Origin: an uncultured Eubacteriales bacterium | Lineage (GTDB): Bacteria; Acidobacteriota; Aminicenantia; Aminicenantales; UBA8522 | Direction of reading: 5' to 3' | Length of the DNA stretch: 54,409 nucleotides | NCBI GenBank assembly: GCA_964445305.1 | Contig: CAYUKK010000016.1 | Location: 1 to 54,409, forward strand | In this document: piece after piece, positions 4,554 through 13,697 of the stretch | Numbering within the stretch: the first letter of the stretch is position 1 | Layout of the letters: the number at the start of each line of letters is the position of its first letter | Position numbers and translations under genes: made by a program | The notes under the pieces: generated by a model | What the model was told of the DNA's origin: nothing | Database searches by the model: none | The model's input: only the letters and a program-made list of their open reading frames with translations

Positions 4554-5405
4554 ATGAACGAGAACGGTCAACCCCGAATTGGCGTTTTTGTTTGTCACTG
4601 CGGCACCAACATCGCCGGCAAAGTCAATATTACGGAAGTCGTCAACTTCGCCTCCCGCCTGGACAATGTCGTCGTGGCCAGGGAATACAAATTCATGTGC
4701 TCGGACCCGGGCCAAGAATTGATTAAACAGAATATCGAGGAGCACCACCTTAACCGAGTCGTCGTCGCATCTTGCTCGCCGCTCATGCACGAACCGACCT
4801 TCCGCGGCACCACGGCCGCCGGCGGCCTCAACCCCTTCTACTTCCAGATGGCCAACATCCGGGAGCAGGTTTCCTGGGTGACGGTGGACCCAGAGCAGGC
4901 GACCAAAAAGGCCAAGGCTCTCATCTCAGCGGCGGTGCGCCGTGTCGCCCTCCATGACCCTCTGGCCAGAAAAGAAGTGCCCGTCCGGCCCGAAATCCTC
5001 ATCGTGGGCGGAGGAATTGCTGGAATCCACGCTGCCTTGACCTATGCTAACTCCGGCAAGAAGGTTTACCTTATCGAAAAACAACCCTCAATCGGGGGCC
5101 ACATGTCGCTGCTCGACAAGACGTTTCCGACGCTCGATTGCGCCGCCTGCATTCTCACTCCCAAGATGAGCGAAGTGGGAAAGCATCCGAATATCGAGCT
5201 GCTGACCTGGAGTGAAATCGAGGAAATCTCTGGCTATGTCGGAAATTTCAAGGCCAAGATCAAGAAAAAAGCCCGCTATGTAGACATCGATAAATGTAAC
5301 GGCTGCGGCGCCTGCTGGGAAAATTGCCCGACAACCATCACCCCGTCGGAACGAATCATCCGGAAGGGAGATATCATCATCAAGCGAGTGGAGCGCGAAA
5401 ACTGA
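4554..5405 (+). CDS. hdrA: Heterodisulfide reductase subunit A, N-terminal half only (283 aa)
   Basis: RIGVFVCHCGTNI, FMCS, ASCSP..H, ANIREQ, the FAD motif VGGGIAG, KTFPTLDCAAC and ARYVDIDKCNGCGACWENCP, then a stop. AGGAGG SD lies 6 nt before ATG 4554. Confidence 0.9.
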   Translation: MNENGQPRIGVFVCHCGTNIAGKVNITEVVNFASRLDNVVVAREYKFMCSDPGQELIKQNIEEHHLNRVVVASCSPLMHEPTFRGTTAAGGLNPFYFQMANIREQVSWVTVDPEQATKKAKALISAAVRRVALHDPLARKEVPVRPEILIVGGGIAGIHAALTYANSGKKVYLIEKQPSIGGHMSLLDKTFPTLDCAACILTPKMSEVGKHPNIELLTWSEIEEISGYVGNFKAKIKKKARYVDIDKCNGCGACWENCPTTITPSERIIRKGDIIIKRVEREN

Positions 5406-5406
5406 C

Positions 5407-5769
5407 ATGAAGCTTCGAGAAATCCAGGCTCTCCTCAAGGCGGAAGTCGTCTGCGGCGAGGAGTATCTGGACAAGGACATCGAGTATGCCGGCGCTTCGG
5501 ACTTGATGAGCGATGTGCTGGCCTTTGGACGAGCTGGTTTGCTCCTCATCACCGGCCTTTCCAACGCCCAATCCGTCCGGACCGCCGACATCGTGGAAGC
5601 CAAAGCCATCATCTACGTCCGCGGCAAGAAACCCGACAAGGACGGCATCGAGCTGGCCAAAAAGAAGGGGATCCCCCTCCTGTCAACAAGACTGATGATG
5701 TACAAAACCTGCGGACTCCTCTTCAGTCACGGCATCGCCGGAATTCCTGAGTCTGAGGAAACAAAGTGA
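5407..5769 (+). CDS. DRTGG-domain protein (hydrogenase-associated regulatory cassette)
   Basis: ASDLMSDVLAF, LLITGL and IIYVRGK motifs typical of stand-alone DRTGG proteins. Confidence 0.8.
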   Translation: MKLREIQALLKAEVVCGEEYLDKDIEYAGASDLMSDVLAFGRAGLLLITGLSNAQSVRTADIVEAKAIIYVRGKKPDKDGIELAKKKGIPLLSTRLMMYKTCGLLFSHGIAGIPESEETK

Positions 5770-11928: not shown

Positions 11929-11939
11929 GGAGGTATCCG

Positions 11940-13697
11940 ATGATAAACCTGACCATAGATGGAAAAAAGGTCCAGATTGAGGAAGGCAAGACCATTCTCC
12001 AGGCTGCTGCTAAACACGAAATCAAAATCCCGACGCTCTGCTACCATCCCGTTATCGAAGCCTATGGCGCCTGCCGCGTCTGCATGGTCGAAGTGACCGT
12101 TCGCGGGAAAAGCGATCTGGTGACTGCCTGCAACACCAAGGTCCAGGAAGGAATGGAAGTCCAGACCGCCTCCGCAAGAGCCCTCAAGGCCCGGCAGTTG
12201 AACGTGGAAATGCTCATGGCCAGGGCACCGGCGGCTGAGCCCGTCCAGGAACTGGCCAAATCCCTGGGTATCGAGAAGACCCGTTTCGAAATCAAGGACC
12301 CCCAGGAAAAATGTATCCTCTGCGGTCTGTGTGTGCGGGCCTGCGAGACCATCGTCGGCGCATCGGCCATCAGCTTTGTTGAAAGGGGAACCGACAGGAA
12401 GGTCATGCCTCCCTTCGGCGAGCCATCGGAAGCCTGCATCGGATGCACGGCCTGCGCCTATTTTTGCCCGACGGGTGCGATTACCTACGAAGACAGGTAT
12501 GGCCGAAAGGTCATCCACACCGAGCTCCACCTTGGCCCGACCACGGCCATCCGGGTGCCCATCCGTCAGGCTGTGCCCATGGTCCCCTTCATCGACACCG
12601 AAGCCTGCATCCATTTCAAAACAGGGGAGTGCAAGGTTTGCGCCAAGGTTTGCGACCGCGAAGCGATTAACCACGACATGGAGGACGAAACCATCGAAAT
12701 CGAAGTCGGGTCGATCATCCTGGCCAGCGGCTTCAAACCCTTCGATGCCCGACGCATCCCGGCCTATGGCTATGGCCGTTTCCCTAACGTCATCACGGCC
12801 ATCGAATTCGAGCGCCTGGTCAACGCCTCAGGACCGACAGGTGGAAAAATCCAGCTGGCTGACGGGACCGAGCCCAAAGCAGTCGGCATCATCCATTGCG
12901 TTGGTTCAAGGGACGAAAAATACAATGAATATTGCTCCCGTGTTTGTTGCATGTACTCGCTCAAGTTTGCTCATCTCCTCCACGAAAAGACGAACGCCGA
13001 AGTTTACGATTTTTACATCGATATGCGCTGCTTTGGAAAGGGCTATGAAGAGTTTTACCACCGATTGCTCCACGAGGGAACAAAGTTCATCCGGGGGCGA
13101 GTCTCCGACATCACGGACATGGCCATGACCCAACAGGAAGAAGGAAAGCTCATCATCCGGGTTGAGGACACCCTGCTCGGGACTGTGCGCCGCATCCCCG
13201 TCGATATGGTCATTTTAGCCACGGGACTCGAGCCCGGTCTCGACCACAACCAGCTGGCCAAAATCTTCAATATCTCCTGCAGTCAGGATACCTTCTTCCT
13301 CGAGCGTCATCCCAAGCTGGCGCCGGTATCAACGTTTTCCGATGGCATCTTCCTGGCTGGAGCTTGCCAGGCGCCTCGTGATATTCCTGATACGGTGGCT
13401 CAGGCAGGGGGGGCAGCCGCTGAAGCCATGGCCTTAGCTGATAAGGGGACTTTTGCTCTCGAGCCTGTGACCGCCGAAATCAACGAAGACCTCTGCTCGG
13501 GATGCCAAATCTGTGTCAACCTCTGCCCGTTCACGGCCATCACCTACGATAAAGAAAAGGGAGTGTCCGTCATCAACGATGCCCTGTGCAAGGGTTGCGG
13601 CACCTGCGTTGCCGCCTGCCCGAGCGGCGCTTCGCACCAGAGACATTTCCGCGATGAGCAGATTTTTGCCGAAATTGAAGGCATTTTCATCGTCTAA
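11940..13697 (+). CDS. Fusion of a HydA/NuoG-type N-terminal Fe-S domain and the HdrA C-terminal half
   Basis: About aa 1-185: IPTLC..GACRVC..TAC [2Fe-2S], CILCGLCVRAC and CIGCTACAYFCP. From about aa 200 it is HdrA-like: QAVP, CIHFKTGECKVCAKVC, IILASGF, YGYGRFPNVITAIEFER, HCVGSRD..YCSRVCCMYSLK, FYIDMRCFGKGYEEFY, HPKLAPV, GACQAPRDIP, and C-terminal CSGCQICVNLCP/CKGCGTCVAACP. Confidence 0.9.
   Translation: MINLTIDGKKVQIEEGKTILQAAAKHEIKIPTLCYHPVIEAYGACRVCMVEVTVRGKSDLVTACNTKVQEGMEVQTASARALKARQLNVEMLMARAPAAEPVQELAKSLGIEKTRFEIKDPQEKCILCGLCVRACETIVGASAISFVERGTDRKVMPPFGEPSEACIGCTACAYFCPTGAITYEDRYGRKVIHTELHLGPTTAIRVPIRQAVPMVPFIDTEACIHFKTGECKVCAKVCDREAINHDMEDETIEIEVGSIILASGFKPFDARRIPAYGYGRFPNVITAIEFERLVNASGPTGGKIQLADGTEPKAVGIIHCVGSRDEKYNEYCSRVCCMYSLKFAHLLHEKTNAEVYDFYIDMRCFGKGYEEFYHRLLHEGTKFIRGRVSDITDMAMTQQEEGKLIIRVEDTLLGTVRRIPVDMVILATGLEPGLDHNQLAKIFNISCSQDTFFLERHPKLAPVSTFSDGIFLAGACQAPRDIPDTVAQAGGAAAEAMALADKGTFALEPVTAEINEDLCSGCQICVNLCPFTAITYDKEKGVSVINDALCKGCGTCVAACPSGASHQRHFRDEQIFAEIEGIFIV

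What the first reader, a model, noticed from the sequence alone, without database searches (positions are those of the whole stretch)
5295..12653. The HdrA break falls between the two Cys motifs of its inserted 2x[4Fe-4S] domain
Seen: the N-half ends shortly after CNGCGACWENCP (5295-5330). The C-half resumes with QAVP..CIHFKTGECKVCAKVC (12606-12653), directly after the NuoG-like Fe-S chain. Established: in 2[4Fe-4S] ferredoxin folds each cluster takes three Cys from one motif and the fourth from the other, and HdrA's inserted ferredoxin domain is proposed as the low-potential route. Inference: both clusters would be ligated across two polypeptides, stapling the halves together. The HydA'-type wire would plug straight into the low-potential arm of HdrA.
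Basis: partly seen in the sequence, partly recalled or inferred. Interest (0 to 1): 0.7.

Follow-up and report, generated by a model that had tools for sequence, protein, structure and literature searches.

The report
Split HdrA carrying a Bfu wire
A heterodisulfide-reductase flavoprotein is encoded in two pieces that break inside a two-cluster ferredoxin domain, with the iron-sulfur wire of an NADH enzyme grafted in at the break; this conserved design joins two kinds of electron-bifurcating machinery.

Summary
HdrA is encoded as a 285-aa N-half (4548-5405) and as the C-terminal part of a 585-aa protein (11940-13697). The break lies between the two Cys motifs of HdrA's inserted 2x[4Fe-4S] domain.

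First, the second protein carries its own CxxCxxCxxxCP motif just before the HdrA part. By homology that motif is the A4 cluster of a BfuA-type N-domain, which has A1 [2Fe-2S], A2 and A4 but no His-ligated A3 and no H-cluster. Second, the split is a gene-level fission of a domain insertion. Single-chain relatives of 870-925 aa carry motif 1, the same tail, a linker, BfuA-N and motif 2 in that order.

The break is conserved: 25 of 26 related loci with upstream DNA have a full N-half, the 26th a short one, and the genome holds a second copy. All 16 Cys of the four motifs are invariant.

Ligation of both clusters across the two chains is therefore well supported by homology, but it was not modelled because the complex predictor was unavailable. 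The wire links a Bfu-type NADH/ferredoxin core to HdrA. Whether this arm is still the low-potential exit is doubtful. It is more likely the entry for NADH-derived electrons.

The parts
3096..3674 (+). HdrC-like subunit (192 aa, 2x[4Fe-4S] motifs)
   Evidence: Pfam Fer4_8/Fer4_17 at residues 30-91. Conserved upstream of hdrB in related loci.
3671..4543 (+). HdrB-like catalytic subunit (290 aa, two CCG domains)
   Evidence: Pfam CCG, 2 stretches, E 2.7e-28. Full-length match to methanogen HdrB 8rvv_B at E 4e-50.
4548..5405 (+). HdrA N-half (285 aa): N-terminal Cys-cluster domain, first FAD-binding GxGxxG segment, motif 1 of the inserted ferredoxin domain, and a conserved tail
   Evidence: Aligns to 5odc_A 3-261 at E 7e-100. 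Pfam FAD/NAD-binding hits cover only residues 149-200. Invariant C16, C18, C51, C76, C198, C201 and G154/G156/G159.
5295..5330 (+). Motif 1 of the inserted 2x[4Fe-4S] domain (CNGCGACWENCP)
   Evidence: C250, C253, C256, C260 and P261 are invariant in 23/23. Aligns to 8rvu_a 254-265 in register with 240 upstream residues.
5331..5405 (+). Conserved 24-aa tail of the N-half plus stop
   Evidence: P266 is invariant; R269, I271, K273 and I278 are at least 90% conserved. The same tail is present in unsplit P0275 before its linker. It is modelled as a beta-hairpin (strands 287-292 and 295-301 of P0275).
5407..9250 (+). Six regulator-type genes between the halves: DRTGG (5407-5769), HATPase (5766-6218), HydS-like [FeFe]-hydrogenase-type protein (6215-7594), DRTGG (7600-7941), PHP (7938-8675), HATPase (8684-9250)
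   Evidence: Pfam. Present in 19 of the 25 loci with a full N-half upstream and absent in 6, so not core subunits.
9228..9683 (+). BfuC / NuoE-like [2Fe-2S] subunit (151 aa)
   Evidence: Pfam 2Fe-2S_thioredx at E 9e-50.
9694..10083 (+). HndB-like small thioredoxin-type [2Fe-2S] protein (129 aa)
   Evidence: Weak Pfam 2Fe-2S_thioredx match at E 2e-4, below the curated cut-off. Conserved in the full-type loci and L031; no tblastn match in compact L005, L017, L024 and L032.
10096..11928 (+). BfuB / NuoF-like subunit (610 aa): N-terminal [2Fe-2S] domain, FMN/NADH site, [4Fe-4S] region, C-terminal 2x[4Fe-4S]
   Evidence: Pfam. Full-length matches to Bfu-family B subunits: 7t2r_B at E 3e-266, 7q4v_B, 9bov_B, 9mqx_B and 8a6t_B. 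Complex I NuoF matches only residues 132-546.
11940..13697 (+). Fusion protein (585 aa): BfuA-type N-domain followed by the HdrA C-half
   Evidence: All 120 of the best 120 database hits to residues 1-300 have this architecture.
11940..12509 (+). BfuA-type N-domain (residues 1-190): [2Fe-2S] A1 (C34, C45, C48, C64) plus a 2x[4Fe-4S] domain. No His-ligated cluster.
   Evidence: Contiguous alignment to 9mqx_A residues 5-192. There is a gap opposite HydA1's Cys/His-rich stretch. The Cys are invariant.
12312..12344 (+). First motif of the BfuA 2x[4Fe-4S] domain (CILCGLCVRAC)
   Evidence: Invariant C125, C128, C131 and C135.
12435..12470 (+). Second motif of the BfuA 2x[4Fe-4S] domain (CIGCTACAYFCP). 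This is the motif that could be mistaken for HdrA motif 1.
   Evidence: Aligned with its flanks to BfuA/HydA/StnC/NfnA motifs. Invariant C166, C169, C172, C176 and P177.
12525..12605 (+). Resumption of HdrA homology (LGPTTAIRVPIRQAVPMVPFIDTEA)
   Evidence: Aligns to 8rvu_a about 275-301. P200 and P213 are invariant.
12606..12653 (+). Motif 2 of the inserted ferredoxin domain (CIHFKTGECKVCAKVC)
   Evidence: C223, C231, C234 and C238 are invariant. Aligns to the second motif of 8rvu_a with a 5-residue insertion.
12654..13694 (+). Rest of the thioredoxin-reductase-like FAD domain with its Cys cluster (C320, C332, C336, C337) and the C-terminal 2x[4Fe-4S] domain (C519-C529, C550-C560)

Best explanation
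What the operon encodes. Thirteen tightly packed genes encode one enzyme, 'Hdr-Bfu'. Its parts are HdrC, HdrB, an HdrA made of two chains, and a Bfu-type NADH/ferredoxin core (NuoE-like BfuC, an HndB-like protein, NuoF-like BfuB).

The anatomy. It is best read as a domain insertion. A BfuA-type N-domain ([2Fe-2S] A1 plus [4Fe-4S] A2 and A4) sits inside HdrA's inserted ferredoxin domain. It lies after motif 1 and a short hairpin tail, and before the 'QAVP' segment and motif 2. In some relatives this is one polypeptide. In the window, and in most relatives, the gene is cut in the linker between the tail and BfuA-N, and the bfuC/bfuB genes (here also six regulator-type genes) lie in the gap.

Why the two chains must reassemble:
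- Shown from sequence and fold comparison: the FAD-binding fold is divided between them.
- Inferred from homology, motif conservation and the standard 3+1 ligation of the fold: the inserted ferredoxin domain has motif 1 on one chain and motif 2 on the other, so each of its two [4Fe-4S] clusters takes three Cys from one chain and one from the other.

The wire (inferred). The BfuA chain A1-A2-A4 hangs directly on that composite domain and connects BfuB's FMN with HdrA's FAD.

Direction (inferred, least certain). NADH, and perhaps reduced ferredoxin, is oxidised at the BfuBC core. Electrons enter HdrA through the composite domain, so the arm that is the ferredoxin exit in methanogen enzymes is here repurposed as the entry. 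They then reach HdrBC, which reduces a disulfide. A DsrC-type protein encoded elsewhere in the genome is a candidate substrate.
For: Break position:
- The N-half aligns to 5odc_A 3-261.
- The fusion aligns to HdrA from the post-motif-1 segment to the C-terminus.

The C166 motif belongs to BfuA:
- Residues 1-190 align contiguously to 9mqx_A (E 6e-40), 8a6t_A, 8oh5_C, 9bov_A and 7t2r_A, including both motifs and their flanks.

Conservation:
- All 16 Cys of the four motifs are invariant in 23/23 aligned pairs. I aligned 22 of the 25 loci and left out L010, L025 and L028.
- An N-half lies upstream of the fusion in 25 of 30 listed loci. The other five are contig-edge cases, fragments or the short variant.
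- The loci fall into three gene orders: 19 with regulators, 5 compact, 1 adjacent.
- A second, compact copy lies in the window's own genome.

Natural single-chain forms:
- P0273 (883 aa), P0274 (870 aa) and P0275 (925 aa) carry motif 1, tail, linker, BfuA-N and motif 2 in that order. The window's N-half ends, and its fusion begins, on either side of P0275's linker.
- Of 217 session proteins with BfuA-N plus the HdrA junction, 211 start with BfuA-N and 6 are unsplit.
- On a 37-row tree the unsplit rows fall in three places among the split rows.

Fold evidence (AF2 model of P0275: pTM 0.70, mean pLDDT 78):
- The linker (residues 304-321) is under pLDDT 50. The 10-residue blocks holding motif 1 and motif 2 average 84-88.
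- The model superposes on 5odc_A over 623 of 653 residues (Z 42.1, rmsd 6.0) and on 8rvy_A over 630 of 644 (rmsd 11.9). That leaves too few unaligned residues for the roughly 76-residue inserted domain to be missing.
- Thioredoxin reductases align across both sides of the break point, for example 5mh4 at Z 23.1 with 287 of 303 residues on model range 166-843.

Bfu core:
- BfuB has full-length matches to Bfu B subunits.

Precedents in print:
- A GltD domain inserted at the same HdrA domain has been argued to turn it into an NADH entry (PMC12054007, passages; PMC9012536 S8 legend).
- A BfuABC module has been proposed to feed an HdrA module in Bam-Bfu (PMC9304861, passages).

Operon and genome context:
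- Gaps between the 13 genes are at most 12 nt or the genes overlap (coordinates).
- No MvhD gene lies in the operon. The two MvhD genes of the genome lie elsewhere, one of them near an unsplit 649-aa HdrA.
- A DsrC-type gene with the C-x10-C-V end is present.
Against: - The fold tools return no coordinates. Trans-ligation and the A4-to-inserted-cluster distance are therefore inferred, not measured.
- A plain sequence alignment places the fusion's own C166 motif on HdrA motif 1.
- The AF2 model of the fusion alone is poor around the junction (pLDDT 31-60 for residues 191-260, pTM 0.42). That fits a missing partner, but the shallow alignment could also explain it.
- The comparison of the two AF2 models mixes different proteins and alignment depths (23 and 45 rows).
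- Direction of electron flow, the role of ferredoxin, and the disulfide substrate are untested.
- dsrA was not found in the genome, which is 92.8% complete. The role of the DsrC-type protein is therefore open.
- No RNA data were available.
Confidence: 0.68

Rival explanations
1. Cis completion. The fusion protein's own C166 motif pairs with C223-C238 to form the HdrA-type inserted ferredoxin domain within one chain. The N-half motif is then spare, or pairs with the C125 motif instead.
For: phmmer aligns fusion residues 163-186 to 8rvu_a 251-274, that is, onto HdrA motif 1, although it needs a 10-residue gap. C166 and C223 are only 57 residues apart.
Against: - The C166 motif and its flanks align contiguously with the second motif of the BfuA/HydA 2x[4Fe-4S] domain in five solved families.
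- The C125-to-C166 spacing is kept in those proteins.
- The N-half motif is invariant in 23/23. It is also retained in the single-chain relatives together with both BfuA motifs.
- The AF2 model of unsplit P0275 superposes on HdrA over 623 of 653 residues.
Confidence: 0.1
2. The composite domain remains the low-potential exit of a bifurcating HdrA FAD. Low-potential electrons leave through A4-A2-A1 into BfuBC, which uses them to make NADH and reduced ferredoxin. HdrA is fed by a donor not encoded in the operon.
For: In methanogen enzymes the inserted ferredoxin domain carries the low-potential branch (PMC9012536, passages; PMC13518236, passages). Bfu enzymes are reversible and accept mid-potential electrons through BfuA (PMC9304861, passages).
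Against: - The operon encodes no other donor module and no MvhD. NADH at BfuB is the only substrate site besides HdrB.
- For GltD-inserted HdrA the same position was argued to block ferredoxin access and to serve as NADH entry (PMC12054007, passages).
- Nothing here measures potentials.
Confidence: 0.2
3. The two halves do not work together. The split is a decaying gene, or the pieces have separate roles.
For: None beyond the presence of a stop codon inside what is elsewhere one gene.
Against: - The same break occurs in 25 loci from several phyla at 52-93% fusion-protein identity to the window, with invariant cofactor residues.
- Two paralogous copies lie in one genome.
- The FAD fold is divided, so neither half has a complete flavin domain.
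Confidence: 0.02

Closest known systems
HdrA of methanogen MvhAGD-HdrABC and related complexes (5odc, 8rvu, 7bkb)
   Same: All four HdrA domains and their Cys ligands are present, including the inter-protomer Cys (C198 here). HdrB and HdrC are encoded alongside.
   Different: It is encoded as two chains broken inside the inserted ferredoxin domain. A BfuA N-domain is grafted in at the break. No MvhD or hydrogenase partner lies in the operon.
[quoted passage not shown]
   Same: An NAD(P)H-linked module is inserted into the same ferredoxin domain of HdrA. A 1134-aa bacterial example lies in L033.
   Different: The insert here is an Fe-S wire (BfuA-N) leading to separate NADH-binding subunits. 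It sits after motif 1 rather than just before motif 2. The gene is usually split.
Bfu family (BfuABC), especially BfuA subunits with only A1, A2 and A4. 9mqx_A is probably WorA of WorABCSL: the id occurs once in that paper's text, but I did not see the passage.
   Same: The BfuB and BfuC homologues are full-length. The BfuA N-domain has [2Fe-2S] plus two [4Fe-4S] motifs and no His-ligated cluster.
   Different: BfuA has no C-terminal domain of its own. It continues into HdrA, so the 'third substrate' module is a second bifurcating-type flavoprotein.
Bam-Bfu (class II benzoyl-CoA reductase BamBCDEFGHI)
   Same: A BfuABC module is combined with an HdrA-type module. Two bifurcation steps in series have been proposed (PMC9304861, passages).
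   Different: As far as the passages say, BfuA and the HdrA-like subunit are separate proteins there. No tungsten enzyme is encoded in this operon. HdrBC is present here.
FlxABCD-HdrABC NADH dehydrogenase/heterodisulfide reductase (Ramos 2015; known to me only through citations)
   Same: NADH-linked HdrABC in bacteria, with a likely DsrC-type substrate (the latter recalled).
   Different: A different NADH module (Flx rather than Bfu). No split or insertion in HdrA is reported in the passages I saw.
HydABC(D) [FeFe]-hydrogenase operons with HydS-type sensor genes
   Same: Gene order is regulator genes, then nuoE-like, hndB-like, nuoF-like, then an A subunit beginning with the same N-domain. The resemblance of this order is recalled, not tested.
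   Different: The A subunit has no H-cluster domain. The only Fe_hyd_lg_C gene in the genome is the sensor-like one.

Membership tests
HdrA (heterodisulfide reductase subunit A) | Thioredoxin-reductase-like FAD domain with its own 4-Cys cluster | tested here: met
   GxGxxG lies in the N-half (G154, G156, G159). The rest of the fold, with C320, C332, C336 and C337, lies in the fusion. The unsplit relative's model aligns to thioredoxin reductases across the break.
HdrA (heterodisulfide reductase subunit A) | Inserted 2x[4Fe-4S] ferredoxin domain with two Cys motifs | tested here: met
   Both motifs are present and invariant, but they lie on two chains.
HdrA (heterodisulfide reductase subunit A) | N-terminal Cys-cluster domain and C-terminal 2x[4Fe-4S] domain | tested here: met
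   The N-half aligns from 5odc_A residue 3. C519-C529 and C550-C560 are invariant.
HdrA (heterodisulfide reductase subunit A) | One polypeptide | tested here: not met
   There is a stop at 5403-5405, and the C-half starts inside another gene 6.5 kb downstream.
HdrA (heterodisulfide reductase subunit A) | Flavin-based electron bifurcation activity with HdrBC | not testable with these tools
   Needs enzymology.
Bfu family (BfuABC) | BfuB with FMN/NADH site, N-terminal [2Fe-2S] domain and C-terminal 2x[4Fe-4S] | tested here: met
   Pfam domains. Full-length matches to 7t2r_B, 7q4v_B, 9bov_B, 9mqx_B and 8a6t_B.
Bfu family (BfuABC) | BfuC (NuoE-like [2Fe-2S]) | tested here: met
   PF01257 at E 9e-50.
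Bfu family (BfuABC) | BfuA N-domain with clusters A1 and A2 (plus A4) | tested here: met
   Contiguous alignment to 9mqx_A, 8a6t_A and 7t2r_A. The A3 stretch is absent.
Bfu family (BfuABC) | Bifurcation between NAD(H), ferredoxin and a third substrate | not testable with these tools
   Needs enzymology.
Electron-bifurcating [FeFe]-hydrogenase HydABC | H-cluster domain (Fe_hyd_lg_C) in the A subunit | tested here: not met
   The fusion protein has no PF02906 hit. The only PF02906 match in the genome is the separate HydS-like gene.
Type III HdrA (GltD-inserted) | GltD/NfnB-like NAD(P)H domain inside the inserted ferredoxin domain | tested here: not met
   The insert is a Fer2_4 plus 2x[4Fe-4S] domain. 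A true GltD-type example was seen only in L033.
Bacterial-type 2x[4Fe-4S] ferredoxin fold | Two Cys motifs that cross-ligate two clusters (3+1) | tested here: inconclusive
   Both motifs are present and homologous to HdrA's. Cross-ligation between the chains is inferred. No model with clusters could be made.

The most novel reading that the evidence does not exclude
The enzyme is a two-stage bifurcation machine held together by a heterodimeric ferredoxin domain. The Bfu core merges NADH and reduced ferredoxin into roughly -400 mV electrons. These pass through A1-A2-A4 and the two trans-ligated clusters to HdrA's FAD. The FAD splits them again, between a disulfide at HdrB and a very low-potential acceptor served by the free C-terminal ferredoxin domain. 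Because both clusters need Cys from both chains, Fe-S insertion itself would gate assembly. The H2-sensor-type genes carried along from a hydrogenase operon would tune the enzyme to hydrogen pressure.
Probability: 0.15. Interest if true: 0.85.

Novelty: new variant of a known kind. Interest (0 to 1): 0.6.

Why it matters
- It would be a natural case of a two-cluster ferredoxin domain built from two polypeptides. This bears on the old idea that the fold arose from half-domains (recalled), and on how Fe-S insertion can drive subunit assembly.
- It physically joins the two least understood electron-bifurcating families, Bfu and HdrA, at a defined point. Natural split and unsplit versions exist side by side, which is a ready-made experimental pair.
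- It marks HdrA's inserted ferredoxin domain as a recurrent docking site for NAD(P)H modules: a GltD insert in some lineages and a BfuA insert here. This affects how hdrA genes in Aminicenantes, Chloroflexota, Acidobacteriota and Desulfobacterota MAGs should be annotated. Many are currently named only '2Fe-2S cluster-binding protein' or 'heterodisulfide reductase subunit A'.

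Tried and rejected
Modelling:
The queue was full, and the tool was declared unavailable. No complex was folded, so there is no verdict on binding.
- AF2 of the fusion alone gave pTM 0.42 and low confidence at the junction. It was too weak to decide between cis and trans pairing.
- The fold tools return no coordinates, so the under-14 A test could not be run.

Alignments and sequence checks:
- A MAFFT alignment with 'unsplit' HdrA from L019/L020 failed because those frames stop after about 200 aa. 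I used the phmmer alignments instead.
- The TGA reported inside the C227 match is simply the stop codon of that N-half, not selenocysteine.

Expression and RNA:
- The look-up of sequencing runs listed two DNA runs, both flagged as possible sources, and no RNA holder.
- Rfam found nothing at 13650-14450.

Operon signals:
- The promoter/terminator scan found the best + strand promoter-like sites at 2765-2793 and 2879-2908, upstream of hdrC. Terminator-like sites did not exceed the shuffles. This is weak evidence only.

Earlier notes:
- The search of earlier findings returned nothing.

Literature:
- Seven searches found no paper describing a split HdrA or a BfuA-HdrA fusion. The search for 'Hdr-Bfu'-type names found 0 papers.
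- nuoEFG-hdrA gene clusters were noted in Desulfotignum (PMC4046663, passages), without mention of a split.
- Appel et al. 2021, the main review of HdrA modules, is not held and may bear on novelty. Wagner 2017 and Ramos 2015 were not read either.
- Supplementary tables of Schut 2022 (BfuB clades) were not opened.

Full report
**Observation**

5295-5330 translates to CNGCGACWENCP and 12606-12653 to CIHFKTGECKVCAKVC. The first lies in a 285-aa ORF (4548-5405) that ends 24 codons later. The second lies in a 585-aa ORF (11940-13697).

Against solved structures, the 285-aa protein matches HdrA 5odc_A residues 3-261 at E 7e-100. The 585-aa protein matches HdrA 8rvu_a up to residue 651 at E 2e-119. 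So HdrA is split, and the break lies between the two Cys motifs of its inserted ferredoxin domain.

**What surrounds it**

Thirteen + strand genes follow one another with gaps of at most 12 nt or with overlaps (coordinates; families):

- HdrC, 3096-3674
- HdrB, 3671-4543
- HdrA N-half, 4548-5405
- DRTGG, HATPase, a HydS-like Fe_hyd_lg_C protein, DRTGG, PHP and HATPase, together 5407-9250
- NuoE-like, 9228-9683
- HndB-like, 9694-10083
- NuoF-like, 10096-11928
- the fusion protein, 11940-13697

The NuoF-like protein matches Bfu-family B subunits over its whole length: 7t2r_B at E 3e-266, then 7q4v_B, 9bov_B, 9mqx_B and 8a6t_B. Complex I NuoF covers only its middle part. HdrB matches methanogen HdrB end to end.

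The fusion protein has three Cys motifs before its flavin domain:

- C125-C135 (12312-12344)
- C166-P177 (12435-12470)
- C223-C238 (12606-12653)

phmmer even aligns the C166 motif onto HdrA motif 1, at the cost of a 10-residue gap. This raises a rival: the ferredoxin insert might be completed within one chain.

Three lines of evidence speak against that rival.

1. Residues 1-190 of the fusion align without a break to BfuA-type N-domains. The matches are 9mqx_A (E 6e-40), HydA1 8a6t_A (E 4.5e-32), 8oh5_C, 9bov_A and 7t2r_A. They include both the C125 and the C166 motif with their flanks. The only gap is where HydA1 has its Cys/His-rich stretch. So C125 and C166 form the BfuA 2x[4Fe-4S] pair. 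In Bfu nomenclature these are clusters A2 and A4. BfuA subunits that lack A3 are described in PMC9304861 and PMC12318220 (passages).
2. The N-half motif is aligned in register with 240 upstream HdrA residues. It is invariant in all 23 aligned N-halves: C250, C253, C256, C260 and P261. The twelve Cys of the fusion's three motifs are likewise invariant in 23 of 23. I aligned the window plus 22 of the 25 loci and left out L010 (frameshift), L025 and L028.
3. Single-chain relatives keep all four motifs (see 'Unsplit relatives').

**Conservation of the break**

A scan of one genome per species returned 69 loci. Of the 30 with a fusion-type hit listed by my script, 25 have an HdrA N-half upstream that ends at the same point. 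The other five are:

- L013, L016, L022 and L049: cut by a contig end, or fragments.
- L027: a short N-half (FAD segment plus motif 1) that my filter skipped.

The 25 loci show three gene orders:

| Gene order | Loci | Gap between N-half and fusion |
|---|---|---|
| Six regulator-type genes in between | 19 | 6.4-7.8 kb |
| Compact, nuoE-(hndB)-nuoF only | 5 (L005, L017, L024, L031, L032) | 2.4-2.8 kb |
| Halves adjacent | 1 (L004) | 132 nt |

By record title the loci come from Aminicenantes, Chloroflexota, Holophagales, Desulfobacteraceae and others.

The window's own genome (2.85 Mb, 92.8% complete) holds a second, compact copy on contig C227. Its N-half is 60% identical and ends in the same tail.

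Other database counts:

- All 120 of the best 120 hits to fusion residues 1-300 have the fusion architecture.
- Among one-per-50%-identity representatives, 19 of the 150 listed match across the junction to at least query residue 249.

**Unsplit relatives**

One representative, P0125, matched from its residue 153 onward. A search with it found six clusters that carry the HdrA N-part in the same chain:

- P0125, P0271 and P0272: 660-666 aa. P0125 and P0272, whose sequences I read, have no N-terminal domain and no C-terminal ferredoxin domain.
- P0273 (883 aa), P0274 (870 aa) and P0275 (925 aa): full length.

In each of the five sequences I read (P0271 was not fetched) the order is motif 1, a linker, BfuA-N, the QAVP segment, then motif 2. 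P0275 also carries a tail homologous to the window's before its linker. In the joint alignment the N-halves stop just before P0275's linker and the fusion proteins start just after it.

Of 217 session proteins with BfuA-N followed by the HdrA junction, 211 start with BfuA-N and 6 are unsplit. The sample is biased by my queries.

I built a tree of 37 rows chosen by me, rooted at the midpoint only. The unsplit rows fall in three places among the split ones:

- P0273 is sister to split P0279 (support 96/88).
- P0275 groups with L031/L032 (82/55, weak).
- P0125, P0271 and P0272 form their own clade (100/100).

Fission or fusion has therefore happened more than once. The split is thus the gene-level cut of a domain insertion, not a random break.

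**Fold evidence**

*AF2 of the fusion alone.*
- pTM is 0.42.
- pLDDT is about 90 for residues 1-130.
- pLDDT is only 31-60 for residues 191-260, which include motif 2.

*AF2 of unsplit P0275 with a 45-row alignment.*
- pTM is 0.70.
- The linker (304-321) is under pLDDT 50.
- The tail forms two strands (287-292 and 295-301).
- Ten-residue block means are 88/84 over motif 1, 84/85 over the A4 motif and 84/88 over motif 2.

*Superposition of the P0275 model.*
- It superposes on 5odc_A over 623 of 653 residues (Z 42.1, rmsd 6.0).
- It superposes on 8rvy_A over 630 of 644 residues (rmsd 11.9).
- Too few HdrA residues are left unaligned for the inserted domain of about 76 residues to be missing. That length is recalled; the preprint passage gives other limits.
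- Thioredoxin reductases align to model range 166-843, for example 5mh4 at Z 23.1 with 287 of 303 residues. That range lies on both sides of the break point.

So the FAD fold itself is divided between the window's two chains. This matches the Pfam picture: FAD-binding hits cover only residues 149-200 of the N-half, and only the C-terminal part of Pyr_redox_2 is hit in the fusion.

The comparison of the two models mixes different proteins and alignment depths, so it is suggestive only.

**What could not be done**

The complex predictor was full and then unavailable. The fold tools give no coordinates. So trans-ligation of the two clusters, and the distance from A4 to them, remain inferences. 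They rest on homology, on invariant Cys, and on the textbook 3+1 ligation of this fold (recalled).

**Mechanism**

*Shown:*
- The parts list.
- The place of the break.
- Its conservation.
- The existence of single-chain equivalents.

*Inferred:*
- The two chains rebuild one HdrA.
- Both clusters of the inserted domain are shared between the chains.
- The A1-A2-A4 chain links BfuB's FMN to HdrA's FAD.

*Direction.* In methanogen enzymes this domain carries the low-potential branch (PMC9012536 and PMC13518236, passages). Here the operon has no MvhD and no other donor module. The genome's two MvhD genes lie elsewhere, one of them near an unsplit 649-aa HdrA. For archaeal HdrA with a GltD insert at the same domain, the authors argue that the insert blocks ferredoxin access and turns the domain into an NADH entry (PMC12054007, passages). 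I therefore favour entry of NADH-derived electrons through this arm and reduction of a disulfide at HdrB.

Two other possibilities stay open.

*Candidate substrate.* The genome encodes a DsrC-type protein with the C-x10-C-V end. dsrA was not found (the genome is 92.8% complete).

**Regulator genes**

The six genes between the halves are absent from 6 of the 25 loci, so they are not core subunits. The HydS-like protein is the only Fe_hyd_lg_C match in the genome.

Their order before nuoE-hndB-nuoF resembles hydrogenase operons. This is recalled, not tested. It suggests that the Bfu part descends from a HydABC-type operon whose catalytic domain was exchanged for HdrA.

**Novelty**

In seven searches I found no paper describing a split HdrA or a BfuA-HdrA fusion. 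What is known:

- HdrA with a GltD/NfnB-like insert.
- Bam-Bfu.
- nuoEFG-hdrA gene clusters in Desulfotignum.
- Fusions among Hdr subunits in archaea.

Appel et al. 2021 was not available and might list this architecture. I rate the finding a new variant of known kinds. It is of interest mainly to people working on electron bifurcation and on Fe-S protein assembly.

Noticed in passing
window 48217-52945 (- strand): A second Bfu-type cluster: NuoE-like (52421-52945), NuoF-like (50551-52452, 60% identical to the first), a short stand-alone BfuA (49832-50647; Fer2_4 plus 4Fe-4S dicluster; 40% identical to the fused N-domain) and a Glu_synthase-domain protein (48217-49797).
   Followed up: partly
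window 13790-13940 and 53130-53300: A stretch of about 150 nt, roughly 90% identical, occurs just after the fusion gene and again beside the second nuoE. It underlies the 72-aa ORF at 13707-13925, which has no Pfam hit. It has no Rfam match.
   Followed up: partly
own genome, contig C227 3322-9857 (L070): A paralogous compact split operon in the order hdrC, hdrB, hdrA N-half, nuoE, nuoF (with an overlapping HndB-like match), fusion. An MvhD gene lies about 15 kb away on the same contig.
   Followed up: partly
window 6215-7594: The HydS-like protein has an N-terminal 2x[4Fe-4S], an Fe_hyd_lg_C domain and a C-terminal 'Putative Fe-S cluster' domain. It is the only [FeFe]-hydrogenase-family gene found in the genome, so an H2-sensor-type gene sits in an operon, and a genome, without a catalytic [FeFe]-hydrogenase.
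   Followed up: partly
L033 7667-11071: In the contig of the closest relative (the same record as L003), an unsplit 1134-aa HdrA has a GltD/NfnB-like domain inserted just before motif 2 of the same ferredoxin domain, next to hdrC and hdrB. No such gene was seen in the window or its genome.
   Followed up: partly
L027 10001-13258: A Desulfobacteraceae variant: BfuA-N is fused to a tandem double HdrA (1085 aa). A short separate N-piece (FAD segment plus motif 1 only) lies before nuoE, and an RnfB-like gene lies upstream.
   Followed up: partly
L001, L012 and L028, between nuoF and the fusion gene: About 1.3-1.5 kb of extra DNA separates nuoF from the fusion gene in these three loci. The N-half-to-fusion gap is 7771-7773 nt, against about 6500 nt in the other full-type loci. 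I did not look at what it encodes.
   Followed up: no
L019 and L020, about 5500-7600: HdrA genes of Chloroflexia whose reading frame stops after about 200 aa, although tblastn continues to the end. This could be an in-frame stop (selenocysteine?) or a frameshift. Not examined.
   Followed up: no
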